From: Candidatus Aquitaenariimonas noxiae
GTDB lineage: Bacteria > Omnitrophota > Gorgyraeia > Aquitaenariimonadales > Aquitaenariimonadaceae
Assembly (NCBI GenBank): GCA_002780005.1
Contig: PEWV01000032.1
Span: 8,123-72,122 of the forward strand
Length of the DNA: 64,000 nucleotides
Direction of reading: 5' to 3'
Part shown: piece after piece, positions 29,173 to 64,000 of the stretch
How the letters are laid out: each line of letters begins with the position of its first letter
Position numbering within the stretch: position 1 is the stretch's first letter
The notes under the pieces: model-generated
The model's database searches: none
Seen by the model: the letters and a program-made list of their open reading frames with translations, nothing else
What the model was told of the DNA's origin: nothing
Position numbers and translations under genes: made by a program

Positions 29173-30094
29173 AAATATAGGTTTTGGTCATATCGCGAGA
29201 TGTCATTCTTTATATCAGGCCTTCCGCGAAAATGGATATTCACCAGAACTTATAATATTTAGCGATAATAGCATTGAAGGATTGTTAGACCACGCCCAGT
29301 ACCAAATCGTAAACTGGCTTAAAAAGCCCCATATTGTTTTTCAACTATTAAAAAGTGCTACCATGGCTATTATTGATTCCTACTTAGCAAAGAAATCTCT
29401 ATATTATAAAATTTCAGAGATAATGAATGGCAGGGTGGTAGCAATAGATGATTATAATAGAGTGGAATATCCAGCTGGAATTGTGCTTAATCCTTCTCTA
29501 TATGGCAATCGATTACATTATTCCAAAAGAGAAGGCGTAACATATCTATTGGGAAAAGATTATATACTGCTGCGAAGAGCTTTTTGGAATATCCCAAAGA
29601 AACACATTAATAGAAAAATTAGAAATATTTTAATTACCTTTGGCGGAACCAACCGCCATCGCTTGATTAACACAGTAACCCATTTTCTTAAAGAAGAATT
29701 TAACTGTAACTTCTACACTATTGGACCCCAGAAAAACATACATGACGCTCATGGCACGCTTAATTTAATGCTAAAAGCCGATATCTGCATTTCCGGCGGT
29801 GGCCAGACTATTCATGAATTAGCACGAGTTGGAGTGCCTACAATTGGAATCTGTTTTGCTGAAAACCAAAGGTATAGCTTACAAGAATGGCGCGATAGAG
29901 GATTTATTGAATATATAGGTTGGCATAAGAATAAGAAACTGTTATCTGATTTATCGAAGGGCATTAAGAAACTCAAGTCCCATAAGAAAAGATGTCAGCA
30001 ACATAAAATAGGAAAAGCGCTTGTGGACGGGAAGGGCGCAATGAGATTATTAAAAGTATTGGCTAATAAAAGATGGATAGGAAATATAGGTTGA
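29141..30094 (+). CDS. pseG: UDP-2,4-diacetamido-2,4,6-trideoxy-beta-L-altropyranose hydrolase PseG
   Basis: PseG signature (GGKNIGFGHIARC), a GT-B-like C-terminus (ISGGGQTIHELARVGVPTI), and a position between pseF and pseH. Confidence 0.8.
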   Translation: MKIIILTEGGKNIGFGHIARCHSLYQAFRENGYSPELIIFSDNSIEGLLDHAQYQIVNWLKKPHIVFQLLKSATMAIIDSYLAKKSLYYKISEIMNGRVVAIDDYNRVEYPAGIVLNPSLYGNRLHYSKREGVTYLLGKDYILLRRAFWNIPKKHINRKIRNILITFGGTNRHRLINTVTHFLKEEFNCNFYTIGPQKNIHDAHGTLNLMLKADICISGGGQTIHELARVGVPTIGICFAENQRYSLQEWRDRGFIEYIGWHKNKKLLSDLSKGIKKLKSHKKRCQQHKIGKALVDGKGAMRLLKVLANKRWIGNIG

Positions 30095-30579
30095 AAATAA
30101 GAGAAGCAACAATGGAAGATTGTTATGATATGTGGATATGGAGGAATCGTCCAGCAGTAAGGAAATGGTGTTTTGATGCAAAAAAGATTAGTTATAAATC
30201 CCATAAAGAGTGGTTTGGAAAAGCGCATAATGACAAATATGTAAGAATATATATTGTTGAGAATGTAAAGAAAGAAAAAATAGGAACCGTGAGGTTTAAA
30301 ATAAAAATAAATAGACAAAATTGCGCCTATCTTAGTGTTTATCTAAACTCTCTTTTCTTGGGAAAAGGTTTTGGTCATAGGATTGTTAAAAAAGCTACTG
30401 ATTTTTTTCTCAAAGAGAAAGAGGGGGTTACGCATATTATCGCTGAAGTCTTTGAAGACAATATCGCCTCGCAGAGGGTATTTGAAAAAGCAAGTTATGT
30501 TTTAGTGAAAAGAATGACAAAGCAGAATAAGAAAATAAAAGTTTTTATGTATGAAAGAGGCTATGGATTTGGATATTAA
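30073..30579 (+). CDS. pseH: GNAT N-acetyltransferase PseH (UDP-4-amino-4,6-dideoxy-N-acetyl-beta-L-altrosamine N-acetyltransferase)
   Basis: GNAT fold motifs (LGKGFGHRIVK) in an approximately 165 aa protein located between pseG and pseI. Confidence 0.75.
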   Translation: MDRKYRLKIREATMEDCYDMWIWRNRPAVRKWCFDAKKISYKSHKEWFGKAHNDKYVRIYIVENVKKEKIGTVRFKIKINRQNCAYLSVYLNSLFLGKGFGHRIVKKATDFFLKEKEGVTHIIAEVFEDNIASQRVFEKASYVLVKRMTKQNKKIKVFMYERGYGFGY

Positions 30580-31591
30580 ATTTTTAAAAAATTGTTTTAT
30601 TGTCACCGAAATTTCTGCCAATCATTGTCGGAATTTTAAACAGGCGATTGCTTTAATAAAAAAAGCAAAGGAGTGCGGTGCTGATGCGGTGAAATTCCAG
30701 ACGTATACTCCAGACACTTTAACTATAGATGTAGATAATAAATATTTTAGGATAAAACACCCTAAATGGAAAGGGCAGACACTGTATCAATTGTACAGAA
30801 AGGCATATACGCCTTGGTTGTGGTTTAAAAAGTTAAAAAGGATAGCAGATAGCTTAGGGATTATATTTTATTCTACCGCTTTTGATAAAACTAGTGTTGA
30901 TTTTCTGGAAGAATTAAATGTGCCTATACATAAAATCTCCTCATTTGAATTGGTTGATTTACCTTTAATTGAATATGTTGCCAGGACAAAAAAACCGCTT
31001 ATGCTATCAACTGGAATGGCAACCTTATCCGAAGTTAAAGAAGCAGTTAATGCCGCGGAGAAAGCGGGAGCAAAAGATATAATTTTATTAAGATGCGTTA
31101 GCAATTATCCTGCCAAGCCAGAAGAAATGAATTTAAAAACCATTCTACATATGCAAAAGTTGTTTAAATGTCCTATTGGACTTTCAGATCACACATTGGG
31201 AATAGCGGTGTCACTTGCGGCAGTTTCCCTGGGTGCAAAAGTAATAGAAAAACATTTTATCCTATCGCGGAATATTAAAACACCAGATAGTTTTTTTTCC
31301 ATTGAGCCACAAGAACTATTAGAACTTGTTAGGAATATAAGAATTGTTGAGAAATCTTTGGGTAGGGTACATTATGGATCAACCGAAGGCGAAACAAAAA
31401 ACAAAGTTTTCAGGCGTTCTCTTTTTATAGTGAAAGATATTAAAAAAGGAGAAAAATTTACTGAAGAAAATATAAGGTCTATAAGACCAGCATATGGGAT
31501 CCATCCAAAATATTTTAAACATGTTATAGGCAAGAAAGCAAAAAGAGATATTAAAAAAGGCGCGCCTTTAAAATTGGAATTAGTGAGTTAG
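30551..31591 (+). CDS. pseI: Pseudaminic acid synthase PseI (NeuB-family nonulosonic acid synthase)
   Basis: NeuB TIM-barrel signature (EISANHCRNFKQAIALIKKAKECGADAVKFQTY...KISSFELVDLPLIEYVA) and a C-terminal SAF/antifreeze-like domain. Confidence 0.85.
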   Translation: MKEAMDLDIKFLKNCFIVTEISANHCRNFKQAIALIKKAKECGADAVKFQTYTPDTLTIDVDNKYFRIKHPKWKGQTLYQLYRKAYTPWLWFKKLKRIADSLGIIFYSTAFDKTSVDFLEELNVPIHKISSFELVDLPLIEYVARTKKPLMLSTGMATLSEVKEAVNAAEKAGAKDIILLRCVSNYPAKPEEMNLKTILHMQKLFKCPIGLSDHTLGIAVSLAAVSLGAKVIEKHFILSRNIKTPDSFFSIEPQELLELVRNIRIVEKSLGRVHYGSTEGETKNKVFRRSLFIVKDIKKGEKFTEENIRSIRPAYGIHPKYFKHVIGKKAKRDIKKGAPLKLELVS

Positions 31592-37030: not shown

Positions 37031-38587
37031 ATGATAAAAGTGTGTTTAATCTCTTTATATGAAGATATAAGTTCTAATGGGATACGATACTTATCTTCAT
37101 ATTTAAAATCTAACGGCGTTGCAGTAAATATGATATTTATGCCTGCAGATATTTCTGATTTTTGTTATAAAGGAAAAAATGATACAAAGAAAGAAATAAA
37201 CATATTAAAGAACTTATTAAATCAGCTTTCCCCCGATCTGATAGGAATAGGTGTTATGGCTAATTATTTTAACAGAGCAGTTCGCATAACAACAGAAATA
37301 AAGAAAGATTTTGATATTTCTGTTATTTATGGAGGTATTCATGCAACAATGTGCCCTGAAGAATGTTTGGAATATGCAGATATAGTCTGTGTAGGTGAAG
37401 CTGAAGAAACGATGACAGAGTTGTGCAAGTCTAAAAATAATCCAGATGCATTAAGGGATATTAAAGGGATATATTACAAACTAGGTGATAAAGTAAAAAA
37501 GAACGAAATTAGGCCTTTAGAAGAAGATTTAGATAAATATCCTTTTCCAGATTATTCGTTAACGGGAGACTTCTTGATTTTAAATAATAAGCTAGAGCGT
37601 ATTCAAAAGAATCACATGGAGAGCTTATTACCTTTGCATCCTTTTGGTGTTGTCACATATAGGCTGATGAGCTCTCGAGGATGTCCTTTTTCATGTACAT
37701 ATTGTTGTAATGAGGCACTTCGGCAAATCTATTCTGGAAAAGGGAAATATCTCAGAGAGAGAAGTGTAAAAAATGTTATTAATGAAATGCTGACTGTAAA
37801 AAATAAATTTAATATACAGGCTTTTCGGATTATGGATGATTCTTTTTTACATCATTCTCTTGAGTGGTTTAAAGAATTCAATAAACTGTATAAATCTAGC
37901 GTTAATTCGCCATTTAGTTGCTTATCAAGTCCCGGCAATGTAACTGTTGAAAAAATGAAGCTATTAGTCGATTCCGGCTTAAGACATATTCAAATAGGGT
38001 TGCAGAGTGGAAGCGATAGAATTAACTTCGAGCTCTATAAAAGAAAGATAAGCAGCGAAAAAACGCTCGCGGTGCTCAACATAATTAATTCACTAAATCC
38101 AAAGCCAAAGGTAGACTTAGATATTATTTTCGATAATCCTTTTGAATCTGATTTAGATAAGATTCAGACAATATATTTTCTGTGTAAAATAAACAAAATG
38201 CAAAATGTGCTATTAGCCTGCTATAGTTTAGTTTTTTATCCTAAAACACAAATATATTATAAAGCAATAGAAGAGGGCATTATCCATGAGAAAGATAGGA
38301 AGAAAGCATATACTCAAGATTTCAGAAAGATTAAGAATACTTTTTTAAATAATTTATGTTTAGGTGCTTCACTTTACAAGTTTTCACCTAAATCGGTTAA
38401 TTTCTTTTTAAAATATAAAGTCTTATATTTCCCTTTTCTGATAGCACAAAAAGCTATTTCTTTCATAAAAAAATTACTTAGTTTTTCACGTAATGTACGA
38501 AGAAGAAAAAGCAAAAAACTCCCACTATTATCCTCAACATTAATAACAAAAACAATATTCCTTGACTCAAAGTTAGAAAAGACATAG
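37031..38587 (+). CDS. Cobalamin (B12)-binding-domain radical SAM protein
   Basis: N-terminal B12-binding Rossmann-like domain (IGIGVMANYF...VIYGGIHATMCPEE) followed by the radical SAM CxxxCxxC motif (SSRGCPFSCTYCCNE). Confidence 0.8.
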   Translation: MIKVCLISLYEDISSNGIRYLSSYLKSNGVAVNMIFMPADISDFCYKGKNDTKKEINILKNLLNQLSPDLIGIGVMANYFNRAVRITTEIKKDFDISVIYGGIHATMCPEECLEYADIVCVGEAEETMTELCKSKNNPDALRDIKGIYYKLGDKVKKNEIRPLEEDLDKYPFPDYSLTGDFLILNNKLERIQKNHMESLLPLHPFGVVTYRLMSSRGCPFSCTYCCNEALRQIYSGKGKYLRERSVKNVINEMLTVKNKFNIQAFRIMDDSFLHHSLEWFKEFNKLYKSSVNSPFSCLSSPGNVTVEKMKLLVDSGLRHIQIGLQSGSDRINFELYKRKISSEKTLAVLNIINSLNPKPKVDLDIIFDNPFESDLDKIQTIYFLCKINKMQNVLLACYSLVFYPKTQIYYKAIEEGIIHEKDRKKAYTQDFRKIKNTFLNNLCLGASLYKFSPKSVNFFLKYKVLYFPFLIAQKAISFIKKLLSFSRNVRRRKSKKLPLLSSTLITKTIFLDSKLEKT

Positions 38588-38690: not shown

Positions 38691-39758
38691 TTATAAATTT
38701 ATTTTTGAAAAAATCTTTGAAATAATAGGAACACGGACCTCTCGATAAAATCCTAACCTGTTGCATTCTCTACAACTAGGCAAAGAGCCCCTTTTTATCT
38801 CTTTTCTTAGCTTTACGCGTCTTTCAGAAAACCAAATCTCCGGCCCATCAACTAGGCAGTTCCCATATTCATAGTAATATAAAAATTCGCATGGAAAAAA
38901 GTTTCCCCAAGGGTCTATAAGAATGGTTGTTTTAGTCCTGTTGCAGTCGCGATATAGCAGAGGACATAATTTATTTAATAGATACCTGAGGCACTGTTCA
39001 ATTTTTATAAAGAGTACATTTCGATTTGTTTTTTCTTTGTAAGTTCTCAAAAGATAATAATATCTTGACCAAATTTCCTCTTTTTCTTTAAGCGTAAGCA
39101 GCAAGCAATCCGGGTCTATGGCTCTATGGCATCCTATTCTTTTGCCTTCGAAGTAAGTATCTTTTAAACTTTTATTAAAATCGACCAAAAAAAGTAATTT
39201 AAAATCAGCGTTTTTTTCTTTTGCAAACAGATACATTTCTTTTAAATGAATATAATTTTTTTTAGACATTACAGGCCATATTGATACCACGGGATGTTGC
39301 TTGTTTTGTTTTTTCTTCTCTTTCTGGAGAGCATCTATTCCTTTTGATGCTTCTAAAAAAGCCCCTTTTCCTCTCATTAAATCATGATATTTTTCCGGGC
39401 CGTCTATTGAAAACCTTATGCGGTGAAGTTCGCCTTTAACTAATTCTTTTGCCACGGACTCATTTATTAAAGTTCCATTGGTAACAATTTCCGTGAACGC
39501 TGAAGGAGAAATTTCCCTGATTATTTCTGGCAGGTCTTCTCTTAGCAGGGGTTCACCGCCCAAAAATCTGACACAATTGACACCAAAATGAGATTTATAA
39601 GTTTTGAAAGTATCAATAATCTCCTTGGTGGTTAATTCCGGCTTGTCGCTACGTTCATCGAGCTTCCATACATTGCACATTCTGCACCTAAGATTGCACT
39701 TGTATGTGATATCAAACGTTAAAGTTGTAGGGTAGCCCCGGCTTTTATTTTTTATCAT
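38691..39758 (-). CDS. Radical SAM protein with a SPASM/twitch-type C-terminal Cys-rich domain
   Basis: CNLRCRMC radical SAM motif, GGEPLL glycine-rich SAM motif, and a C-terminal CxxC...CRECN cluster. It is paralogous to the truncated minus-strand ORF at 63339-64000 (shared SIDG.E..HD.MR...GAF block). Confidence 0.75.
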   Translation of the reverse strand: MIKNKSRGYPTTLTFDITYKCNLRCRMCNVWKLDERSDKPELTTKEIIDTFKTYKSHFGVNCVRFLGGEPLLREDLPEIIREISPSAFTEIVTNGTLINESVAKELVKGELHRIRFSIDGPEKYHDLMRGKGAFLEASKGIDALQKEKKKQNKQHPVVSIWPVMSKKNYIHLKEMYLFAKEKNADFKLLFLVDFNKSLKDTYFEGKRIGCHRAIDPDCLLLTLKEKEEIWSRYYYLLRTYKEKTNRNVLFIKIEQCLRYLLNKLCPLLYRDCNRTKTTILIDPWGNFFPCEFLYYYEYGNCLVDGPEIWFSERRVKLRKEIKRGSLPSCRECNRLGFYREVRVPIISKIFSKINL

Positions 39759-39941: not shown

Positions 39942-41208
39942 ATGGCAGATGTAATTTTATTCCAACCAAAAACGTCTAAAGGATCGGCGAAAGAACTACT
40001 TTCCAGAGCCCCCGTAGGGTTATTATTTGTAGCAGCCCCCTTGGTTAAAAATAATTATAAGGTTAAAATCATAGATCAGGAAACAGATATCTATTGGCTT
40101 GATGAATTGAATAAGGAGCTAAATGATTCGACAATTTGTGTAGGAGTTTCTTCAAGGACCGGCAGGCAGATTTCAGAAGGATTAAAATTTTCCAAAATCG
40201 TCAAAGATAGATATAATATACCGATTGTTTGGGGGGGGCGTACACCCAAGCATGTTGCCAGAACAAACAATCATGAACAGTTTAATTGATATTGTAGTTA
40301 GAGGCGAAGGAGAAGAATCATTTTTAAAAATTGTCACAGCGTTAAAGTGTGGTAATAGCCTTAATGATATACCGAATATCTGGTGGAAAGATAATGATAA
40401 AGTTTATTCAACACCAACAGATGGACTTATCAATCTAGACAACCTGCCCCCATTACCCTACCAATTGTTGGACTTTGAAAAATATATTGAAATACCGCAA
40501 ACCAATCTTCCAAATTGTAAACGTATTATTGAGGTATATACAGAGAGGGGATGCTGCCATAGATGCGGGTTTTGCTATAATATTAATATGCATCAATGTA
40601 AATGGCGAGCGCTTGCAGCTTCTAAGGTCGTGGAGCAAATAGAATGCCTTGTTAAAAATTTTGTATTGGATGGGATTAATTTTAATGCTGATAATTTTTT
40701 TGTAGACAAAAAGAGAGTAGCTGATATTTGCGCAGGGATTATAAAAAGAAAAATTAAAATTTCTTGGCAAGCTGGCTGCAGAATAGATTATTTTGCCAGA
40801 TATGATAATTCATTTATCGATTTATTAATAAAAAGTGGTTGTCGTAAGTTAAATTTTGGACTTGAGAGCGGTTCGCAAAGAATATTAAATTTGATACAAA
40901 AAGACATGAATTTAGACGACGTTTTTAAGGTTAACGCAAAATTGAAGAAATGGCAAATAAGAGTTGATTATGATATTATGGCCGGTTTCCCGGAGGAAAC
41001 CAAAGAAGAGGTGTTGCAGACTTATAAGATTATGTTTAGGTTACATCATGAATATCCAAAGGCAACGTTTTTTGGACCGTATATATATACACCCTATCCC
41101 GGGACACCCTTATACGACAAGTGTCTGGAAATGGGATTTAATCCTCCGGAGAGACTTGAAGATTGGGAAATTTTGAATGGTGTGGGAAAACATATTTATC
41201 ATTCATAA
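39942..41208 (+). pseudogene. B12-binding radical SAM protein split into two ORFs (39942-40289 and 40225-41208) by a frameshift in a G8 homopolymer (40231-40238); a G7 tract restores a continuous protein (...NIPIVWGGVHPSMLPEQ...)
   Basis: The N-terminal ORF is a B12-binding domain and the downstream ORF carries the radical SAM motif (ERGCCHRCGFC). Removing one G fuses them at the conserved GGVHP motif. This is either phase variation or a homopolymer sequencing error. Confidence 0.7.
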
Positions 41209-55636: not shown

Positions 55637-57336
55637 AGTGGTCAGAAGCATTAATTCCGACTTTAAAAGAAAATCCATCTGACGCAGAAGTCATAAGCCA
55701 TAAACTTATGGTAAGGGCCGGATTGGTAAGAAAGCTCATAGCCGGCGCTTACTCATATCTTCCTTTAGGAGTTAAGGTTTTAAATAAGGTAGAAGGTATT
55801 ATACGCCAGGAGATGAACAAAAAAGGGGCGCAGGAAGTTTTATTGCCGGCTATTCACCCGCCCGAGCTTTGGAAAAAAACCGGCAGATATGACCTCATAG
55901 GCGAGGACATGATAAAATTTAAGGATAGACATGGCCGCGAGATGGTTTTGGGCCCGACGCATGAGGAGATAATAACAAATCTTATCGCAAGTGAGATCCG
56001 CTCTTACAGGCAATTGCCCCTTACCCTATATCAAATTCAGACGAAGTTCAGGGATGAGCCGAGGCCGAGATTCGGCGTTATAAGAAGTTGTGAGTTTATT
56101 ATGAAAGACGCCTATAGCTTTGATGCGAACTTGGAAGGCTTGGAAAAAAGTTATAAAAAGATGTATGATGCCTATTGCAGGATATTCGAACATTGCGGGC
56201 TCAATTATATCCCGGTGGAGGCGGATCCCGGGTTTATGGGCGGTAATGTGTCGCATGAATTCATGGTTCCTGCCTCAAGCGGAGAGGACGTTATAGTTAC
56301 CTGCGATTCATGCAAATATGCCGCGAGCGTAGCCGTTGCCAAATGTTTCGAACCAGGAACAAAAAACCCTGGCCCTAAAACCCGCGAGGCTATAAAAGAG
56401 GTTTCCACGCCGGGCGTTAGCACTGTTGAAAAAGTAAGCCAGCTTCTTAAGGTTAAACCTTCAGAGCTCGTAAAAACTCTGATCTATGTAGCAGATGGAA
56501 CAGGCCTAGCCGTATTGGTTCGCGGCGATTTTGACATTAATGAAACAAAGCTGAAGAATATCTTAAAAGCCGAGATCCTAACACTTGCCGACGAGAAAAC
56601 GATCGAAAAGCTTACAGGCGGGCCCTTGGGTTATAGTGGGCCGGTTAATCTTAAAGGTATAAAAATAATAGCCGATTCGAGCGTCAAAGGGATGAATAAT
56701 TTTGTGACCGGCGCGAACAAAAAAGATAAGCACCTTATAAATGTCAATCTCCAAAGGGATTTTAAAGCGGATGAATGGGCGGATTTAAGATTCATTACGG
56801 AAAGTGACACCTGCCCGAAATGTAAGGGAAGCATAAAAATAGGCCATGCTATTGAGGTGGGTCACACGTTTAAGCTTGGAACAAAATATACAAAAGCCCT
56901 CGGCGCCATGTATCTTGATAAAGAGGGAAAAGATAGGGAAATAATAATGGGCTGTTATGGTATCGGAGTTAATAGGATTATAGCCTCATGCATAGAGCAG
57001 AATAACGACAAGGACGGTATCGTATGGCCTTTATCCATAAGTCCTTACGAAATCGTTGTCATACCTATCAATATTTTAGATGATAAGCTCAAAACTGTTT
57101 CAGAGAAAATATATAAAGATCTGACCGATGCTGGCTATGATGTTTTGTTTGATGACAGAGACGAAAGGGCCGGCATAAAATTCAAAGATATAGATTTGAT
57201 AGGTATTCCCCTTCGGATAGTTATCAGCGAAAAGAACCTAAAAGATGGAAATGTAGAGATTAAATTTCGGAATACTCAAAAAACGCATTTTATAAGTGAA
57301 AAAGAAATTATAAAAGAAGTTAAGAAATTTTTGTAA
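55633..57336 (+). CDS. proS: Prolyl-tRNA synthetase (bacterial type with INS editing domain)
   Basis: Class II motifs 1-3, an editing insertion, and the C-terminal anticodon-binding domain. It follows the uppS-cdsA-dxr-rseP-ispG block. Confidence 0.95.
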   Translation: MKWSEALIPTLKENPSDAEVISHKLMVRAGLVRKLIAGAYSYLPLGVKVLNKVEGIIRQEMNKKGAQEVLLPAIHPPELWKKTGRYDLIGEDMIKFKDRHGREMVLGPTHEEIITNLIASEIRSYRQLPLTLYQIQTKFRDEPRPRFGVIRSCEFIMKDAYSFDANLEGLEKSYKKMYDAYCRIFEHCGLNYIPVEADPGFMGGNVSHEFMVPASSGEDVIVTCDSCKYAASVAVAKCFEPGTKNPGPKTREAIKEVSTPGVSTVEKVSQLLKVKPSELVKTLIYVADGTGLAVLVRGDFDINETKLKNILKAEILTLADEKTIEKLTGGPLGYSGPVNLKGIKIIADSSVKGMNNFVTGANKKDKHLINVNLQRDFKADEWADLRFITESDTCPKCKGSIKIGHAIEVGHTFKLGTKYTKALGAMYLDKEGKDREIIMGCYGIGVNRIIASCIEQNNDKDGIVWPLSISPYEIVVIPINILDDKLKTVSEKIYKDLTDAGYDVLFDDRDERAGIKFKDIDLIGIPLRIVISEKNLKDGNVEIKFRNTQKTHFISEKEIIKEVKKFL

Positions 57337-57435
57337 AAGAATCCAACCTGTCTCTCACATTTTTTCCAGTCACCTTTCAAAAAATAATTATTAGGCTCTG
57401 TCAACTTTTTGCAAATAGCAGGTCTATATAGAGTA

Positions 57436-58863
57436 TTATATTTTAGTTTTTATGCTAATTTCACTTGCAAGGAACTTTTCTACATATAGCAAATGAACCG
57501 TATGCAGGCATAAAAGATATAGAGGGGGAAATATCGCACCTAATATCCTTATTTCCCATCCGGCACCAAAAACAATAAATAATGGAATTATAAAAATTAA
57601 AGTTAAAATCAACAAATATCTTATTGGAAGCGGTTTCTTGGTCCATTTATAGAAAATTAAAAAAGAGATAAGTATAAGTAAAAAAATATTTCCGCCTTGT
57701 GGAAATATATCTATACCTAAACAATAAGGGTCACAAAACATAAAATATGAGTGTGGTGATAAAAAAAATGCAATGTGCTCTTTTGCCTGCCATATTACAT
57801 GAGTACCGCTAGCCCTTGCGTATAAGACTGCCAAAAATGATAATATTCCACAGACAATAGATGCATGAGCTATTATATGTTTTAGAAATTTTTTATTTGG
57901 CATGGTCCTATATTTTAACGCTATAAAATACAAAAGAAGTAACGCTCCGGTCTCTTTGTTTAAAATACTCATAGAGAACGATAAATAATATAACAACCAT
58001 TGTTGTTTAATTAAAAAAATCAAACACACTATAAAAAATAGCAATTCTGGAAAATCGTAAATATAACCACCGTATAGAAATGTCCATGGCAAAATAAGTA
58101 AAGCAAAAACCGGAGAATAGTCTAAAACTGCCGGGTGAACACTGTATACACATTTAGTCAGATGCCGGGTTAATAGCATAAGTAGCAGCAAGCAGATATA
58201 TAAAAAAATGAAAACCAAGTGATACTTTAATGTGAGCACCAAATGATATTTTAACATTAAACTAGTATTAAAAGTCTCACAATAAGATATATTTCTCATA
58301 ATAGGCGAGTTTTGCATCAAAAAGTTACTAATTGAAACCGAGATATGTCTGGGTACTATTGCTACTATAAGATTAATAAGCATTGGCGATAACATTCTTG
58401 AGACAGAAGGTTTATATGCAGTACCATCTAACATCTGAAACAAACATGCTAATAAGCAATTGTTAAACCTTAAAAGAAACCACTTTACCGTAAAAGATGT
58501 TAATACTATCAAAGCGGCTAATAAATATATGAAGAACAGCAACGTTTTTCGACAGAATTTTCTCGTTTTATTTTCGTTTGGTTTAAAAAGAATCCTTAGG
58601 CAAAACAATAAGCAAAATAGAATAATATTATTAAACTGAAAGAAAGCAATATGTGCTTTAGCAAGGTAATAGTCGAAAGGTAGCGCATTGTCTTTTATCA
58701 AAGCCGATTTTAAGAAACTATCAGACTGCGTGTTATATAATTTAGCCAAAGATATGTCAAAGAATGACAGATAAAATAGCCATATAGCTATTAAACAAAC
58801 AAAGAGCCCTATTGAGAAAAGAGGGAGTATATTATGTGATTTATATTTGTTTTTGGATGTCAT
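57436..58863 (-). CDS. Polytopic integral membrane protein (at least 10 predicted TM helices); candidate GT-C-type glycosyltransferase / polymerase-like protein
   Basis: Very hydrophobic 475-aa protein with no recognisable soluble domain. It contains a short internal duplication (LMLKYHLVLTLKYHLVF) and lies next to the radical-SAM module. Confidence 0.35.
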   Translation of the reverse strand: MTSKNKYKSHNILPLFSIGLFVCLIAIWLFYLSFFDISLAKLYNTQSDSFLKSALIKDNALPFDYYLAKAHIAFFQFNNIILFCLLFCLRILFKPNENKTRKFCRKTLLFFIYLLAALIVLTSFTVKWFLLRFNNCLLACLFQMLDGTAYKPSVSRMLSPMLINLIVAIVPRHISVSISNFLMQNSPIMRNISYCETFNTSLMLKYHLVLTLKYHLVFIFLYICLLLLMLLTRHLTKCVYSVHPAVLDYSPVFALLILPWTFLYGGYIYDFPELLFFIVCLIFLIKQQWLLYYLSFSMSILNKETGALLLLYFIALKYRTMPNKKFLKHIIAHASIVCGILSFLAVLYARASGTHVIWQAKEHIAFFLSPHSYFMFCDPYCLGIDIFPQGGNIFLLILISFLIFYKWTKKPLPIRYLLILTLIFIIPLFIVFGAGWEIRILGAIFPPLYLLCLHTVHLLYVEKFLASEISIKTKI

Positions 58864-58866
58864 TTT

Positions 58867-61299
58867 TTAAGAAGACTCTTTTTTAATTATTAGTCGAATT
58901 AAAGTGCCCTTGTCATGTAACACAACCCTGTTGAACAATTTTAACAGGCAATAACGCACGGATCCTTTTTTAAAAAAAGGCCTATAAAAAAAAGTGGAAT
59001 ATTCCTGAACTTGTAGAATTTTATATTTGCAGAAATAATCACTGATAATATCTTTCGCAATAAAACCTTTATTTTTATCGATTAATATTTTGCTATTTTC
59101 AGCGGGAGAGTGGAAGTCGACCATTTTTATAATTTCTGTTTTAGAAAGGTCTCTTTTTACGAGATGGATTTTTTTTAAGTGTTCATTGATGTGTGCTTGG
59201 TGATAATCGGTTATTTTTTTTCCGCCACCAAACATTTTAAACAATTCTGCAAACAGCCGCAAATATGCGAAGGTAAAGAATTTTTTGTTCTGTTCATGTG
59301 ATATAATAATCAAACCATTTTTGTTTAAAATTCTATCTATTTCTTTTAAGCAACTTCCGTAATCAGGGAGATGATGCAATACTGCATTCAATGTAATAAC
59401 ATCAAACGTTGAATCAGAGAATGGCAATTTTTCCGCATCTCCCTGAACGAAAAAGATAAATTGTGTGCAAACGCTATCCTTAAATCTTTTTTTTGACTCC
59501 AGAAGCATATTGTAGCTGAGGTCATAGCAGACGAGGGTATCGATTGTTTCTAGATAATTTTGTATAGTGTTGCCAACAAATCCAGTACCGCTGCCAAGGT
59601 CTAAAATAGATAACTTGAATCCATCTCTACCTCGAGCCTCATTTAGGCGCTTAGACGCTATATTCTTCCACCATAGTATATCTCCTTCTAACACTTCGGG
59701 ATGGTTAGAATCGTATGTTTCTGCTTCGCTTTCATGATAGATATGATTTATTTCCTTGATTAATTTAACATTATATTCTATAGGGTCAGTTTGATTAAAA
59801 AATCTTTTAATTCTTCGTGATATTTCCCACAGGTAGCTTCGAAAAACATAAAGAGCCCATTGGTCTTTGCGAATAATAGATACTAACAAGTCGGCGGCGA
59901 TAATGACAGGTATTTGGGGAAGGTATTTAAAATATATATATAGTTTTTTCCTAAGAATAAATTTTGTGATATTCGAAGGTAATATAGGAAGAGCCCTAAA
60001 TAGTATTTGGAAATTAAGCAGATTGCATTTTTTCTTATCGGCGACAACGGAACCTGTAGAAAGATAGTTTTTCTGAAGACCTTGATTTATATTTTCAGTT
60101 ACATATTTTTCATTTATAATACAATTACGCAATGCGTACTTGGTTATATCAACTTCAGGGAAATATTCAAGCCAAAAAATACTTGCTCTTATCATATGTT
60201 TTCTTTCAGATAGGAATTCAATTGCCTGCAAAACATCTTCGTCTTTTTCACCGGGAAGCCCTACCATAACATCTACGGAATAGTTTAATCCAGCATCATC
60301 TAATGCATTAAGAGCGTGATATATTTCTTCATTTGTTTCTTGTCTGTTTAGCACTTTTCTGCGTATGCAGGGATTAAGCGATTCTATACCTATTTGAACA
60401 TGCCAACATCCAGCTTCTTTTAAGGCAGCAGCTATGCCAGGCGTGATAGTTTTTGGGTGACCCATAATTCTCAAAGGCACACCTATTCCTTTTTTATATC
60501 TTTCAAGAAATTCTAATGTCCAACTTCCGGAAGCCGCAAGGATGTTGTTCTTTATGTCTACACGTTTATAATTATAGCGTTCTTTCATAATTTTTAGTTC
60601 AGAAATTACACTTTCTACGGATCTCTCACGATAAAAAGGACTTAAATTATTTTCTTTTTCCCAATGCGCATAAAAATTCTGAGAACAATAAGAACAAGTA
60701 GCAATGCATCCCTTGTTCGTAACAGTAAGATAATAATCAGATATAGGTATGTATTTTTTAAATAATTCCTTATCTAGCAGGGGAAGTGTATCAAGATTTT
60801 GCATTAGAGATCGTGGGTTATTTTTTATAATTTCACCATCTTTTTTAAACCATAAATTTTTTATAGAATAATCCACACATCTGTTTTTCAAGCTCTCCAG
60901 AAGTTCAAGAAGCGGATACTCTCCTTCTCCCAGGCAAATAATATCTACACAATCTTCTGCTATGCATGTATCTGGTACTGATGTCGGATGTACTCCTCCC
61001 ATAATCACAGGCACATTTATTGTTTTCTTAACAGTTCTAGCTATGTCTAAACACCATTGATAGTTATCGGCAAATACTGAGAAAGCCAGAAGGTCTGGCT
61101 GATAATGGATGATATCCCTTATGACCTGTTTTTTATCACTCAATATTTTTGACAGAAACGGAATAGAAAAATATTGCTTATCATCAAAGAGGCCCCTGTC
61201 GAAAGCAAGGGTACATTCATGTCCATGCTGTTTCAATATAGCAGACAACGCTTCAATAGAAATTATTTCGGATCCGACAGCTGCAAACATTACTTTCAT
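58867..61299 (-). CDS. Fusion protein: B12-binding radical SAM enzyme (N-terminal ~450 aa) + class I SAM-dependent methyltransferase (C-terminal ~250 aa)
   Basis: B12-binding domain (VPVIMGGVHPTSVPD), radical SAM motif (CIATCSYCSQNFY), then methyltransferase motif I (ILDLGSGTGFVGN) and motif II/III (FDVITLNAVLHHLPD). Confidence 0.8.
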   Translation of the reverse strand: MKVMFAAVGSEIISIEALSAILKQHGHECTLAFDRGLFDDKQYFSIPFLSKILSDKKQVIRDIIHYQPDLLAFSVFADNYQWCLDIARTVKKTINVPVIMGGVHPTSVPDTCIAEDCVDIICLGEGEYPLLELLESLKNRCVDYSIKNLWFKKDGEIIKNNPRSLMQNLDTLPLLDKELFKKYIPISDYYLTVTNKGCIATCSYCSQNFYAHWEKENNLSPFYRERSVESVISELKIMKERYNYKRVDIKNNILAASGSWTLEFLERYKKGIGVPLRIMGHPKTITPGIAAALKEAGCWHVQIGIESLNPCIRRKVLNRQETNEEIYHALNALDDAGLNYSVDVMVGLPGEKDEDVLQAIEFLSERKHMIRASIFWLEYFPEVDITKYALRNCIINEKYVTENINQGLQKNYLSTGSVVADKKKCNLLNFQILFRALPILPSNITKFILRKKLYIYFKYLPQIPVIIAADLLVSIIRKDQWALYVFRSYLWEISRRIKRFFNQTDPIEYNVKLIKEINHIYHESEAETYDSNHPEVLEGDILWWKNIASKRLNEARGRDGFKLSILDLGSGTGFVGNTIQNYLETIDTLVCYDLSYNMLLESKKRFKDSVCTQFIFFVQGDAEKLPFSDSTFDVITLNAVLHHLPDYGSCLKEIDRILNKNGLIIISHEQNKKFFTFAYLRLFAELFKMFGGGKKITDYHQAHINEHLKKIHLVKRDLSKTEIIKMVDFHSPAENSKILIDKNKGFIAKDIISDYFCKYKILQVQEYSTFFYRPFFKKGSVRYCLLKLFNRVVLHDKGTLIRLIIKKESS

Positions 61300-61726
61300 A
61301 AGATTACCCCATGTTATAGCATATAATTTTTATGTTTTGATTTTTTTACACTTAAAAGATCTGACAGCATAGTAACTAAATTTCAAAAAAAGAAATAGGT
61401 TACCAGCATAATTAGAAACTCGCCTTTGAACTAATATATAATTCAGATTTGAAAAGAATCTAAATAAAAAATTATCTGGGATGGATGTAATGAGTCTAAA
61501 AAAAGGTTTCATAACTATGTATATTTTTCATGGTAATAGAGATATCCATCCAGGCAGACGTTGTAATACTACAATGCGTTGTGTATCTTTTCCAGATAGA
61601 AAAGAACGAGCCGGAAAATAATTCATGATATTGCTTTGTACTTTTTGCATATCGTAGTATCTTGCTATTTCCGTATGAGGATAAGGTTGTAGTATCGTTG
61701 GGGTCATAAAAGCGCCCATTTTTGTA

Positions 61727-61867
61727 TTAGCCAATCAATTTGTTATATTTTTCAAATGATAAACTCACTACATCAGTATCATGGCCAGCGTTTTTTAAGA
61801 CGGCAGACATTGCTTGAAAACCATTTAACTCAAATGATGAAAGCTGAACAAATAATATTTTTGCCAT
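61727..61867 (-). pseudogene. Remnant of a B12-binding radical SAM N-terminus (MAKILFVQLSSFELNGFQAMSAVLKNAGHDTDVVSLSF...), 47 codons then a stop; the remaining ~430 bp to the upstream gene is non-coding
   Basis: Clear similarity to the N-terminus of the 58867-61299 protein (MKVMFAAVGSEIISIEALSAILKQHGHECTLAF). The otherwise gene-dense region 61300-61894 has only short, unrelated ORFs. Confidence 0.5.
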
Positions 61868-61894
61868 AAGCACTGTTTTAATTAATCCCTTGTC

Positions 61895-63328
61895 TTACTT
61901 CGAGCCTTGAATATTTATGAATGAATAGAAAGCCATAAGTAATTTTTTTACATCTTCTATTGAATTAATTGAAAGTAATTGTCTAATAATCATTCCAGGG
62001 TTGAGATATAGTCTTCTGTAAGCCTCTTTTTGTTTTTTTAGCAGTATTTCTTTATCAAGTCCAAAGGGAACAAATATGGGAGTAGAGGAGGAAATTAACA
62101 GTTTGTCAAAATGAGAGCGAGAAAACACCCCATATGTTTCTGCTTTATTCCAGAGTTCTGTTCCTGGATATGGTGTCATAAGGCTAAAGACAGGATAATG
62201 CGATTTTAATGAAAGAGCAAAGTTTATTGTTTTTTCTATTGTTTCCAACGTTTCCCCGGGGTTTCCAAGTATGAAGAATGTTTTTAACATTAATCCAGAT
62301 TGCAAAGCTAGTTTGCATGTTTTTGTAACTTGATTTAGGGATACATTTTTTTTTATTAAACGAAGAATTCTTTCATCACCGGATTCAACACCAATAGCCA
62401 CAAGCCAACATCCAGATTTTTTCATCTCCTTAAAAATACCTTTATCTTTGATATTAGCATGCATATTAGCATACCAGCTTATAGCAATTCTTTTTCTTTT
62501 CAGCAATCGACATATGTCATATATACGATTTTCGTTTATAGAAAAAGTATCATCGCAAAAAAATACTTCTTTTACGCCAAACTGTTTGGTTAAAAATTCT
62601 ACGTAATCAACTACATATTCTGCACTATGCAAACTAACAGATTTGCCAAAAGGGGTATTACAAAAAATGCACTGATGGGGGCAGCCCCTTGAAGTAATAA
62701 TTGGCATAAAAGGCAATTTTTTGTAGTGAAGAAGATATGGTTTGTATTTAGAAATAGGTGGCAATAAATGAATAGCTGGAAATGGTAACGTGTCCAAATC
62801 GCTTATTCTGCCCCTTGGTTTGTTTACAATTATTCGATTATCAGAGGTTTTGAATACCAGGCCGTCTACATTAGAGAGATTTTTGGAGTTACTTTCAATA
62901 CTGTTTGCTAATTCCAATAGGGTTTTTTCGCCTTCTCCGATAACGCAATAGTCAAAAGGTATTTGTTCTAATGAACTTTCCGCCAGAAAAGTAATATGAG
63001 GACCTCCTGCAACAATTGATTGAACAACATTAGCTTTTTTAATTTCTTCAACTAATTTCGCAACTACATGACAAGAAGGCGTGTTGACATATATGCCTAC
63101 TAGCTGAGCAGATTGGTTTTTTAAATATCGAACAATATCAACAGTGGAAAGATGTAAGACATTTGCATCAAGGATTTTCACTTCATAACCATTTTTTATC
63201 AGGTAACTAGCAAGAGAACATAAACCGATCGGAGGTTGTAATGAGGCAAGAAGGCTGTATTTCCCATAGATATCTTTGATATCAGCGGGTGGATTAATTA
63301 ATATAATTTTAAGCCTGGCCTGTTTCAT
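61895..63328 (-). CDS. Cobalamin (B12)-binding-domain radical SAM protein
   Basis: B12-binding domain (IVAGGPHITFLAE) and radical SAM motif (TSRGCPHQCIFCNTPF). Confidence 0.8.
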   Translation of the reverse strand: MKQARLKIILINPPADIKDIYGKYSLLASLQPPIGLCSLASYLIKNGYEVKILDANVLHLSTVDIVRYLKNQSAQLVGIYVNTPSCHVVAKLVEEIKKANVVQSIVAGGPHITFLAESSLEQIPFDYCVIGEGEKTLLELANSIESNSKNLSNVDGLVFKTSDNRIIVNKPRGRISDLDTLPFPAIHLLPPISKYKPYLLHYKKLPFMPIITSRGCPHQCIFCNTPFGKSVSLHSAEYVVDYVEFLTKQFGVKEVFFCDDTFSINENRIYDICRLLKRKRIAISWYANMHANIKDKGIFKEMKKSGCWLVAIGVESGDERILRLIKKNVSLNQVTKTCKLALQSGLMLKTFFILGNPGETLETIEKTINFALSLKSHYPVFSLMTPYPGTELWNKAETYGVFSRSHFDKLLISSSTPIFVPFGLDKEILLKKQKEAYRRLYLNPGMIIRQLLSINSIEDVKKLLMAFYSFINIQGSK

Positions 63329-63338
63329 ATACCTATAT

Positions 63339-64000
63339 TTAGAACAATGCTACATAATCTTTAAGGATAGAAAGCACTCCCTTATATTTCAACAGCGCAC
63401 TGACAAAACCCATGCATCGTATGGTGCAGTTTTTACAAAATTGATGTTTACCCTGCAAAATTCCGAACTTCATAACATTTTTTTTATCATAATAAATACT
63501 TCTAATATCACCCTTACTTAGCTGTAGAGGTAAGCCGTTACATGGAAAACTTATGCTTCCGTCCTGCTTGAGAGAAATAGCGATGTCCATCGCTCTGCAG
63601 CCATAGGAATCCAAGCCCCCATGTTGTATAATACTAAAAAATGGTTGAACGTTTGTAATTAGATTTTTATACTTCACCCTAAGAGATTTTATAGTATTAG
63701 CGTATTCTGAAAGAAAACTCGTATTAGAATCGAACATATTTTTTCCGGTCTCATTCATGGGTGTATATATACTTTTACTTAAAATCCCTATCGAAATTTT
63801 TACTCCTAATTTCTTAGCAATATCGCATAAGTCCTCCAACATTTCATAAGAAGTCGTAGGAGTATAAATTGTGGTAATCTGAGTTTTGCAATTTTTAGAA
63901 TTTAAAAATCGAAGTGTTTCAAGAGCTTTATTAAACGCGCCGGGAGCTTGTCGCATGGAATCGTGAAAATCTTCCGTGCCATCAATGCTTACATGTATCA
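63339..64000 (-). CDS. Radical SAM / SPASM-domain protein, N-terminus off the window (reading frame open to 64000)
   Basis: The sequence continues without a stop upstream of the Met at 63956 (...IHVSIDGTEDFHDSMRQAPGAF...). It has a C-terminal Cys cluster (CKNCTIRC) and is paralogous to the 38691-39758 product. Confidence 0.65.
   Translation of the reverse strand, partial: IHVSIDGTEDFHDSMRQAPGAFNKALETLRFLNSKNCKTQITTIYTPTTSYEMLEDLCDIAKKLGVKISIGILSKSIYTPMNETGKNMFDSNTSFLSEYANTIKSLRVKYKNLITNVQPFFSIIQHGGLDSYGCRAMDIAISLKQDGSISFPCNGLPLQLSKGDIRSIYYDKKNVMKFGILQGKHQFCKNCTIRCMGFVSALLKYKGVLSILKDYVALF

What the first reader, a model, noticed from the sequence alone, without database searches (positions are those of the whole stretch)
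58867..61299. Unusual 810-aa fusion of a cobalamin-binding radical SAM enzyme with a class I SAM methyltransferase
A single ORF carries a B12-binding domain, a CxxxCxxC radical SAM core, and then a complete Rossmann-fold methyltransferase (motif I ILDLGSGTGFVGN; motif II/III FDVITLNAVLHHLPD). B12-rSAM methylases normally act alone, because methylcobalamin is the methyl donor. Fusion to a second, SN2-type methyltransferase suggests sequential C- and O/N-methylation or a distinct bifunctional chemistry. I do not recognise this architecture as a characterised enzyme class.
Basis: partly seen in the sequence, partly recalled or inferred. Interest (0 to 1): 0.55.

Follow-up and report, generated by a model that had tools for sequence, protein, structure and literature searches.

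The report
Natural B12-radical-SAM / methyltransferase gene fusion
The 810-residue protein is a genuine but rare joining of two enzymes, a vitamin-B12-dependent radical SAM enzyme and an ordinary SAM methyltransferase, that are separate neighbouring genes in most relatives; this shows they work together in a widespread, still uncharacterised pathway that probably modifies the cell envelope.

Summary
Observation confirmed. An 810-aa ORF lies at 58867-61299 on the minus strand. It carries a B12-binding domain (residues 13-133), a radical SAM core (195-363, C198-x3-C202-x2-C205) and a complete class I methyltransferase (about 513-810).

The fusion is not an assembly chimera. The gene is 100% nucleotide-identical in three other assemblies of this Omnitrophota population (GenBank PIU41853.1, "hypothetical protein"). 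A 59%-identical fused homologue recurs in five contigs.

The architecture is rare but not mysterious. More than 100 orthologues are about 500-aa stand-alone B12-rSAMs. In most loci with enough flank, the orthologous ~290-aa methyltransferase abuts them.

Fusions arose independently. One differs from a split pair by one A in a homopolymer. Fused forms are never monophyletic on the tree.

The same methyltransferase family is also fused to a membrane-anchored alkaline-phosphatase-superfamily enzyme, to GT4 glycosyltransferases, and in reverse order to another B12-rSAM. All sit in a conserved core: GT9, rSAM, AP enzyme, MT, B12-rSAM. This core occurs in many phyla.

Most likely it is a tethered two-step tailoring enzyme acting on a lipid-linked glycoconjugate. 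Substrate and chemistry are inferred, not shown. Interest is moderate.

The parts
58867..61299 (-). Fusion gene, 810 codons plus stop: B12-binding domain, radical SAM domain, helical domain, 10-residue linker, class I methyltransferase
   Evidence: identical nucleotide sequence in L008, L009 and L010
60901..61263 (-). B12-binding Rossmann-like domain (residues 13-133; GGVHPT at 101-106)
   Evidence: Pfam PF02310 E 3e-14; G101, G102 and H104 invariant in 54 homologues
60211..60717 (-). Radical SAM core (residues 195-363), with the cluster motif C198-x3-C202-x2-C205 at nt 60685-60708
   Evidence: Pfam PF04055 E 8e-19; the three Cys are invariant; motif position
59794..60210 (-). C-terminal strand and helical region of the rSAM module (residues 364-502). 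Stand-alone orthologues end here.
   Evidence: AF2 helices 421-501 at high pLDDT; stand-alone proteins P0004, P0008 and P0018 end at the equivalent position
59764..59793 (-). Fusion junction, linker QTDPIEYNVK (residues 503-512). No in-frame stop or start relic. The next in-frame Met is M598, beyond motif I.
   Evidence: comparison with the split junctions in L005 and L007 and the fused junction in L001
58870..59763 (-). Class I SAM methyltransferase module (residues 513-810; Methyltransf_11 at 566-666 = nt 59302-59604). Orthologous to stand-alone ~290-aa neighbours.
57436..58863 (-). Downstream 475-aa polytopic membrane protein (about 11 hydrophobic segments, no Pfam or NCBIfam hit). Its start lies 3 nt after the fusion gene's stop, so it probably belongs to the same operon.
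   Evidence: Not conserved at sequence level with the membrane proteins that follow the other fusions.
61300..61894 (-). About 600-nt spacer holding short same-strand ORFs that look like relics of an internally deleted paralogue of the same B12-rSAM family
   Evidence: orfA 61727-61873 matches the extreme N-terminus of orthologues (tblastn E 5e-4 to 9e-3); weak colinear match of orfB; present unchanged in L008-L010
61895..63328 (-). Second B12-binding radical SAM gene of the operon (477 aa), most similar to HpnJ but below its cut-off
   Evidence: HpnJ E 7e-68, 230 bits against a cut-off of 578
63339..64000 (-). 3' part of radical SAM gene rSAM_B (335-344 aa in the full contigs), cut by the window end. 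The rest of the operon (AP enzyme, rSAM_A, GT9) lies beyond the window.
   Evidence: L008 gene table

Best explanation
The ORF is a genuine fusion of two adjacent genes of one operon. The first gene is a cobalamin-type radical SAM enzyme of about 500 aa. The second is a class I SAM methyltransferase of about 290 aa, of the broad UbiE/COQ5-like Methyltransf_11 group, that normally abuts or overlaps it. Because the two genes touch, a small indel near the stop codon is enough to weld them, and this has happened more than once. The product is a tethered two-enzyme protein with a linker of about 10 residues. Inferred mechanism: the N-terminal module uses its [4Fe-4S] cluster, SAM and cobalamin for radical chemistry at an unactivated position, either C-methylation or a rearrangement. 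The C-terminal module carries out an ordinary SN2 methyl transfer from a second SAM to an O or N atom of the same intermediate. Both act in a conserved pathway. Its core is a GT9 heptosyltransferase-like glycosyltransferase, a radical SAM enzyme, a membrane-anchored alkaline-phosphatase-superfamily enzyme, this methyltransferase and this B12-rSAM. The pathway most likely decorates a lipid-linked envelope glycoconjugate at the cytoplasmic face of the inner membrane. Shown here: the fusion is real, both modules are intact, the pairing and the core cluster are conserved, and fusion is recurrent. Inferred only: the substrate class, the order of steps, and whether the rSAM module methylates.
For: Fusion is real. 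The 2433-nt gene is identical in three other assemblies (L008, L009, L010); the underlying look-up read 14 contigs carrying the neighbouring B12-rSAM gene. The protein is on record from NCBI, JGI, ENA and Logan on 8 contigs. Fused homologue P0003 (59% identity) lies on 5 contigs, and P0002 on one.
Neighbours are the norm. The orthologous methyltransferase is the abutting gene in L005 (1-nt gap), L006 (4-nt overlap, upstream) and L007 (11-nt overlap). In 20 GTDB genome loci it abuts the B12-rSAM, free or fused to the AP enzyme, in most loci with enough flank.
Fusion mechanism and recurrence. P0002 differs from the split pair in L005 by A7 to A6 just before the stop, and it keeps the old start Met. 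In the NJ tree P0002 is sister to split P0004 in 200/200 bootstraps, and the window protein is never sister to P0003 (0/200). The three linkers are unrelated.
Both modules are intact. The Cys triad, GGxHPT, the GxGxG motif and the acidic and His residues are conserved. The fold models are confident and the fold matches agree.
Pathway context. The core GT9, rSAM_A, AP, MT and B12-rSAM genes recur in Omnitrophota, Magnetococcales, Nitrospina/Nitromaritima, Desulfobacter vibrioformis, Planctomycetota and others. The methyltransferase family is also fused to the AP enzyme (6 representatives), to GT4 glycosyltransferases (3) and, N-terminally, to another B12-rSAM. The AP enzyme has an N-terminal polytopic membrane domain of about 200 aa.
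Precedent. In gentamicin biosynthesis GenN (a SAM N-methyltransferase) and then GenD1 (a Cbl-rSAM C-methyltransferase) act on neighbouring atoms of one sugar (PMC5819394).
Against: No member of this B12-rSAM family, this methyltransferase family or the cluster has been characterised, so substrate and chemistry rest on context only. No NCBIfam equivalog cut-off is met for any cluster protein. Structural neighbours of the rSAM module include the non-methylases OxsB and AprD4. Fold matches of the methyltransferase are generic and do not give a substrate class. The full-length model gives no reliable inter-domain geometry, because the methyltransferase part had a shallow and partly misaligned MSA. 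P0002's fusion rests on one contig and one homopolymer base, so it could be a sequencing error. The downstream membrane protein is not conserved among the fused loci. The rSAM/SPASM genes in the cluster would also fit a peptide substrate.
Confidence: 0.6

Rival explanations
1. Artefact: the ORF is an assembly or sequencing chimera of two adjacent genes (a missed stop or a frameshift error).
For: In relatives the two genes abut, so a single base error could fuse them. P0002 differs from a split pair only by one A in an A7 run. The same window does contain a B12-rSAM gene split by a frameshift in a G8 run.
Against: The gene is nucleotide-identical in three further assemblies from at least two projects, while flanking DNA shows a few SNPs. 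It is deposited independently in NCBI, JGI, ENA and Logan. The junction has no homopolymer and no in-frame stop or start relic, and its linker is about 10 nt shorter than the split arrangement, so a one-base slip does not explain it. The fused homologue P0003 is recovered in 5 contigs.
Confidence: 0.03
2. The methyltransferase-like domain is not an independent tailoring enzyme but an accessory of the B12-rSAM reaction. It might load or re-methylate cobalamin, as the reactivation domain of methionine synthase does, or act only as a SAM- or substrate-binding scaffold. The fusion would then be a single-reaction machine with new chemistry.
For: The pairing with B12-rSAMs is strong: the gene abuts fusN in most loci, and it is fused in reverse order to a different B12-rSAM (P0232). 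The very short linker suggests the two proteins touch.
Against: The same methyltransferase family is fused to a membrane AP-superfamily enzyme (6 representatives) and to GT4 glycosyltransferases (3 representatives), none of which use cobalamin. All catalytic-type motifs of a working class I methyltransferase are conserved. From general knowledge of the characterised Cbl-rSAM methylases, which was not checked in the papers read here, cobalamin is methylated by SAM bound in the rSAM domain itself, without a helper domain.
Confidence: 0.1
3. The fusion and pathway are as in the best explanation, but the B12-rSAM module is not a methylase. It would catalyse a cobalamin-assisted rearrangement, cyclisation or ring contraction (OxsB-, HpnJ-, BchE- or Grs-like), and the methyltransferase would supply the only methyl group.
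For: Fold neighbours include OxsB and AprD4. The second B12-rSAM of the operon is most similar to HpnJ. A pathway that already has a class I methyltransferase does not need the rSAM to methylate.
Against: Most characterised Cbl-rSAM enzymes are methylases, and TsrM, MgmA and CysS are the top structural matches. Sequence alone cannot discriminate.
Confidence: 0.25
4. The cluster matures a ribosomal peptide (RiPP) rather than a glycoconjugate. B12-rSAM C-methylation and class I N/O-methylation of a peptide would occur as in proteusin or bottromycin pathways.
For: Two rSAM genes in the operon resemble rSAM/SPASM peptide maturases (NCBIfam hits, all below cut-off). The fusion's weak NCBIfam hits include ApyD and rSAM_ocin_1.
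Against: The tools used here identified no precursor-peptide, protease or exporter gene. The gene tables list none, but no dedicated search for precursors was run. The invariant partners are a GT9 glycosyltransferase and a membrane-anchored AP-superfamily enzyme. The methyltransferase family is repeatedly fused to GT4 glycosyltransferases. The core is conserved in order across many phyla, which is unusual for RiPP clusters.
Confidence: 0.08

Closest known systems
Cobalamin-dependent (class B) radical SAM enzymes with solved structures: TsrM, TokK, CysS, MgmA, OxsB
   Same: N-terminal Rossmann-type B12-binding domain, CxxxCxxC radical SAM barrel and C-terminal helical region. These are the top Foldseek matches (E 1e-19 to 1e-16). 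PDB sequence hits are to TokK, CysS and OxsB.
   Different: Only 12-16% identity. No known family cut-off is reached. None of the characterised enzymes carries a class I methyltransferase domain (reviews read describe only N-terminal or C-terminal helical extras). The substrate is unknown.
Class I SAM methyltransferases of the UbiE/COQ5 / Methyltransf_11 group (e.g. TM1389, UbiG, PmtA-type PE N-methyltransferase, RebM)
   Same: Motif I GxGxG, the acidic residue after strand 2, and the seven-stranded fold. Pfam scores are above the gathering cut-offs. Foldseek E is about 1e-11 to 1e-9.
   Different: UbiE/MenG equivalog cut-offs are not reached (69 bits against 216). The module has a two-helix N-terminal extension and an insertion between strands 5 and 6. 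It forms its own orthologous family tied to this cluster.
GenN / GenD1 of gentamicin biosynthesis (separate proteins)
   Same: A class I SAM N-methyltransferase and a cobalamin-dependent radical SAM C-methyltransferase act consecutively on adjacent atoms of one sugar (PMC5819394). This is the working model proposed here.
   Different: They are separate polypeptides in an actinomycete antibiotic cluster. No sequence orthology was shown. Here the enzymes are fused and sit in an envelope-type cluster.
Split orthologous gene pairs and sister fusions in the same cluster family (L005, L006, L007; AP::MT in L020, L021, L023, L025, L028; MT::B12-rSAM P0232; MT/GT4 fusions P0194, P0252, P0273)
   Same: The same two protein families and the same conserved core of GT9, rSAM, AP, MT and B12-rSAM.
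   Different: In these the methyltransferase is free or welded to a different partner. Only the window protein's cluster, P0002 and P0003 have the order B12-rSAM then MT.

Membership tests
Cobalamin-dependent (class B) radical SAM enzymes | N-terminal B12-binding Rossmann-like domain (PF02310) | tested here: met
   Pfam 53.3 bits against a cut-off of 32.1; AF2 pLDDT above 90; fold matches to TsrM, CysS and OxsB
Cobalamin-dependent (class B) radical SAM enzymes | CxxxCxxC [4Fe-4S] motif within a radical SAM barrel (PF04055) | tested here: met
   C198, C202 and C205 are invariant in 54 homologues; Pfam 68.9 bits against a cut-off of 29.5
Cobalamin-dependent (class B) radical SAM enzymes | Actually binds cobalamin and uses it in catalysis (methyl transfer or rearrangement) | not testable with these tools
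   Needs purified, reconstituted protein. AprD4, a fold neighbour, is reported in the literature to lack cobalamin, so the fold alone is not proof.
Named B12-rSAM equivalogs (HpnJ, BchE, ApyD, PhpK, rSAM_ladder_B12, MJ_1487 family) | Score at or above the NCBIfam curated cut-off | tested here: not met
   The best hits are 74-80 bits against cut-offs of 251-750
Class I SAM-dependent methyltransferases | Motif I (E/D)xGxGxG, an acidic residue ending strand 2, and a seven-stranded Rossmann-like sheet | tested here: met
   LDLGSGTG at 566-573, D593, and the conserved His pair of LHHL; Methyltransf_11 74.2 bits against a cut-off of 21.2; AF2 pLDDT 89 with 7 strands; Foldseek
UbiE/MenG quinone C-methyltransferases | Score at or above the NCBIfam equivalog or subfamily cut-off | tested here: not met
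   69.3 bits against 216 and 66.8 bits against 158. There is no quinone-pathway context.
Conserved GT9 / rSAM / AP / MT / B12-rSAM cluster (unnamed, defined here) | The B12-rSAM orthologue is encoded next to the orthologous methyltransferase, together with GT9, rSAM_A and a membrane AP-superfamily gene | tested here: met
   The full operon is seen in L008-L010. The same core is present in L005, L006, L007, L012, L013, L015, L020, L022, L023, L025, L028 and L029.
RiPP maturation B12-rSAM C-methyltransferases (PoyC / ApyD type) | Co-located precursor peptide and family-level score | tested here: not met
   ApyD 77.5 bits against 750 and rSAM_ocin_1 70.7 bits against 282. No precursor-like gene appears in the gene tables. 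The absence of a precursor was not searched for exhaustively.

The most novel reading that the evidence does not exclude
The recurrent covalent links among the B12-rSAM, the class I methyltransferase, the membrane-anchored AP-superfamily enzyme and the glycosyltransferases mark a membrane-bound multi-enzyme machine. It would build a so far undescribed, multiply methylated (C- and O/N-methyl, possibly phospho-linked) envelope glycolipid decoration shared by Omnitrophota, Nitrospinota, Magnetococcales, Desulfobacterota and others. In the fused enzyme the two SAM-using active sites might cooperate on one centre, for example by exhaustive methylation, rather than merely acting in sequence.
Probability: 0.12. 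Interest if true: 0.7.

Novelty: new variant of a known kind. Interest (0 to 1): 0.4.

Why it matters
The fusion works as a Rosetta stone. It shows that an uncharacterised family of cobalamin-type radical SAM enzymes and a particular class I methyltransferase act together. Together with the sister fusions, it ties both to a membrane-anchored alkaline-phosphatase-superfamily enzyme and to glycosyltransferases. That defines a conserved five-gene module of unknown product, found in many mostly uncultivated phyla and in at least one cultured bacterium, Desulfobacter vibrioformis DSM 8776. This gives a concrete entry point for experiments. For radical SAM enzymology, a naturally tethered Cbl-rSAM plus SN2 methyltransferase would be a convenient single-polypeptide system for studying two consecutive SAM-dependent steps. 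It does not by itself demonstrate new chemistry.

Tried and rejected
- Plus-strand reading of the coordinates gives only stops; the gene is on the minus strand.
- The word-indexed homologue search with the methyltransferase domain alone missed even the known fused relatives. The exhaustive representative search was used instead.
- In alignment A1, MAFFT placed the free methyltransferases under the N-terminal half, so the methyltransferase part of the full-length model was of low confidence. It was remodelled alone from alignment A3.
- Pairwise BLASTP of the downstream membrane protein against the membrane proteins that follow the other fusions found no significant similarity. That gene is therefore not part of the conserved core.
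- The promoter and terminator scan of 57200-62000 found no more sites than shuffled sequence.
- The Rfam scan of 57000-64000 found nothing, and in particular no cobalamin riboswitch.
- NCBIfam on all operon proteins reached no equivalog cut-off.
- Literature searches for this architecture or cluster returned nothing relevant. Two reviews of Cbl-rSAM enzymes mention no such fusion.
- I tried to read a TAATG stop/start relic in the window junction. It would need two compensating indels, so I did not rely on it.
- The idea that the AP enzyme is a soluble phosphomutase was dropped when its N-terminal membrane domain of about 200 aa was seen.
Full report
**1. The observation**

The coordinates hold one uninterrupted ATG ORF of 810 codons, on the minus strand (58867..61299). 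The plus strand is full of stops.

Pfam places three domains, all above the gathering scores:
- B12-binding at residues 13-133
- Radical_SAM at 195-363
- Methyltransf_11 at 566-666, within a wider UbiE-like match at 525-690

AlphaFold2 models residues 1-500 at pLDDT above 90. Modelled separately with a clean alignment, the C-terminal 306 residues give pLDDT 89 and pTM 0.89, with the seven-stranded class I methyltransferase fold.

Foldseek matches the N-terminal module to TsrM, MgmA, CysS, OxsB and AprD4. It matches the C-terminal module to many class I methyltransferases.

**2. The fusion is not an artefact**

The window comes from Candidatus Omnitrophica bacterium CG07_land_8_20_14_0_80_42_15 ("Ca. 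Aquitaenariimonas noxiae"). The protein is PIU41853.1 / UniRef100_A0A2J0L165, annotated as hypothetical, and is on record from NCBI, JGI, ENA and Logan on 8 contigs.

Three further assemblies carry the 2433-nt gene with zero differences: two ENA MEGAHIT assemblies and one groundwater assembly from SRR1534154. Two of them show 7 SNPs in the surrounding 8.7 kb.

Two diverged fused homologues exist. P0003 (809 aa, 59% identity) lies on five contigs. P0002 (830 aa, 63% identity) lies on one contig.

The window junction is RRIKRFFN-QTDPIEYNVK-LIKEIN. It has no homopolymer and no in-frame stop or start relic. The next in-frame Met is M598, past motif I, so the methyltransferase cannot be made separately.

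**3. What the fusion is made of**

Of the 120 best homologues, all but four are stand-alone B12-rSAMs of about 500 aa, 46-73% identical over the first 62% of the query. The exceptions are the three methyltransferase fusions and P0082, which is fused to a second rSAM/SPASM domain.

In their contigs the orthologous methyltransferase of about 290 aa is the touching gene:
- downstream with a 1-nt gap in L005
- downstream with an 11-nt overlap in L007
- upstream with a 4-nt overlap in L006

In 20 loci from GTDB genomes, the methyltransferase abuts the B12-rSAM in most loci that have enough flank. None of those 20 loci has the B12-rSAM::MT fusion.

The pairing is the rule, and only the covalent link is rare.

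**4. How the fusions arose**

P0002's DNA differs from the split pair in L005 by one A in a homopolymer (A7 to A6) a few codons before the stop. That shifts the rSAM frame into the methyltransferase frame and keeps the old initiator Met. This is either a very recent mutation or a sequencing error.

The rSAM half of P0002 is 89.7% identical to split P0004 but only 73% identical to the window protein.

In an NJ tree, P0002 is sister to P0004 in 200/200 bootstraps. The window protein and P0003 are never sisters (0/200). The three linkers are unrelated in sequence.

Fusion has therefore happened at least twice, and probably three times. That is expected when two co-translated genes touch.

**5. 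The wider context**

The complete operon, seen in the longer contigs, runs in this order:
- GT9 heptosyltransferase-like gene
- rSAM_A
- AP-superfamily enzyme (Phosphodiest/Sulfatase)
- rSAM_B
- an HpnJ-like B12-rSAM
- a spacer of about 600 nt
- the fusion gene
- a gene for an 11-segment membrane protein

An IS256-type transposase lies on one side and convergent proS on the other.

The core of GT9, rSAM_A, AP, MT and B12-rSAM recurs in Omnitrophota, Magnetococcales, Nitrospina/Nitromaritima, Desulfobacter vibrioformis DSM 8776, Planctomycetota, Uhrbacteria-labelled MAGs and others.

An exhaustive search with the methyltransferase domain, followed by Pfam, shows the same methyltransferase family fused in four other ways:
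- to the C-terminus of the AP enzyme (six representatives; this is the arrangement directly beside the B12-rSAM in L020, L021, L023, L025 and L028)
- to GT4 glycosyltransferases (P0194, P0252, P0273)
- to a second methyltransferase (P0174)
- N-terminally to a different B12-rSAM (P0232, closer to the operon's second B12-rSAM)

The AP enzyme has a polytopic membrane domain of about 200 aa before its catalytic domain, a layout like that of EptA or LtaS. A SAM-dependent domain fused to its C-terminus implies that its catalytic domain faces the cytoplasm. This last point is inference.

No cluster protein reaches any NCBIfam equivalog cut-off. I found no literature on the cluster or on this architecture.

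**6. Most likely mechanism**

The protein is a tethered pair of consecutive tailoring enzymes.

The N-terminal module would cleave SAM reductively and use cobalamin for radical chemistry at an unactivated position. C-methylation is the commonest outcome in this class. A rearrangement is not excluded, because OxsB and AprD4 are among the structural neighbours.

The C-terminal module would transfer a methyl group from a second SAM to a heteroatom of the same intermediate.

Three lines of context argue for a lipid-linked glycoconjugate substrate handled at the inner face of the membrane: the GT9 gene, the membrane-anchored AP enzyme, and the fusions to GT4 glycosyltransferases.

Gentamicin biosynthesis provides a precedent for a class I N-methyltransferase (GenN) followed by a Cbl-rSAM C-methyltransferase (GenD1) on adjacent atoms of one sugar (PMC5819394).

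Shown: a real fusion, intact motifs, conserved pairing and cluster, and recurrent fusion. Inferred: the substrate, the order of steps, and the nature of the rSAM reaction.

**7. Rivals**

- Assembly artefact: about 3%. It is refuted by the identical independent assemblies and by the diverged fused homologues.
- Methyltransferase domain as a cobalamin-loading or scaffold accessory: about 10%. It is disfavoured because the same family is fused to enzymes that do not use cobalamin.
- Non-methylating rSAM module: about 25%. This is a variant of the main model.
- RiPP maturation: about 8%. No precursor peptide was seen, and the invariant partners are a glycosyltransferase and a membrane AP enzyme.

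**8. Novelty and verdict**

Both modules belong to well-known superfamilies, and the fusion is a simple read-through of neighbouring genes. It is therefore a new variant of a known kind, not new chemistry.

Its value is as a Rosetta-stone link. It defines a conserved, uncharacterised five-gene module, probably acting on the cell envelope, found across many phyla and in at least one cultured carrier in which it could be tested.

Interest is 0.4.

Noticed in passing
window 39942-41208 (+): A B12-binding radical SAM gene in the other glycan cluster is split into a 115-aa ORF and a 327-aa ORF by a frameshift at a G8 run (40231-40238). With G7 it would read IVWGGVHPSM in frame. The same G8 is present in three other assemblies (ERZ27293349, SRR5435975, ERZ27293391). 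This could be a fixed pseudogene or the 'off' state of a phase-variable homopolymer in a surface-glycan gene.
   Followed up: partly
window 61300-61894 (-): The spacer of about 600 nt upstream of the fusion gene holds three short same-strand ORFs. The first (61727-61873, MAKILFVQLSSFELNGFQAMSAVLKNAGHD...) matches the extreme N-terminus of the same B12-rSAM family in several loci (tblastn E 5e-4 to 9e-3). This looks like the relic of an internally deleted paralogue. It is identical in all assemblies.
   Followed up: partly
L008 7510-8937 (beyond the window end; same operon): The alkaline-phosphatase-superfamily enzyme of the operon has an N-terminal polytopic membrane domain of about 200 aa. 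In relatives about 50% identical it carries the methyltransferase fused to its C-terminus (ORFs of about 790 codons in L020, L021, L023, L025 and L028; representatives P0171, P0176, P0183, P0186, P0218). This implies a cytoplasm-facing AP domain, unlike EptA or LtaS.
   Followed up: partly
L021 8819-11719 (Desulfobacter vibrioformis DSM 8776; protein P0082, 910 aa): In this cultured bacterium the orthologous B12-rSAM is fused to a second radical SAM/SPASM domain and is preceded by an AP::MT fusion. This is another fusion within the same cluster, and a possible experimental system.
   Followed up: no
window 61895-63328 (-): The second B12-rSAM of the operon is clearly closer to HpnJ than to other families (E 7e-68, 230 bits, still below the 578-bit cut-off). 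HpnJ is the hopanoid-associated enzyme thought to contract a sugar ring. This hints at carbocycle or ring chemistry on a glycosyl head group.
   Followed up: no
window about 23300-43700 (+): A separate large surface-glycan cluster. It holds NeuB-like, PseG-like and acetyltransferase genes (29141-31591), several GT2 and GT4 glycosyltransferases, a further B12-rSAM (37031-38587) and an rSAM/SPASM gene (38691-39758, minus strand). This small genome carries an unusually high density of radical SAM genes in its glycan loci.
   Followed up: no
L008 3833-5086 (just beyond the window end): An IS256-family transposase (Transposase_mut) lies directly upstream of the GT9 gene that opens the operon. On its other side are rimP, nusA and infB. 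The operon may have been inserted or rearranged here.
   Followed up: no
L001 3206-4720: The membrane protein downstream of the fused homologue P0002 carries a DVHPPLYYLLLH motif reminiscent of ArnT/PMT-type GT-C glycosyltransferases. The window's downstream membrane protein (57436-58863) shows no detectable similarity to it.
   Followed up: no
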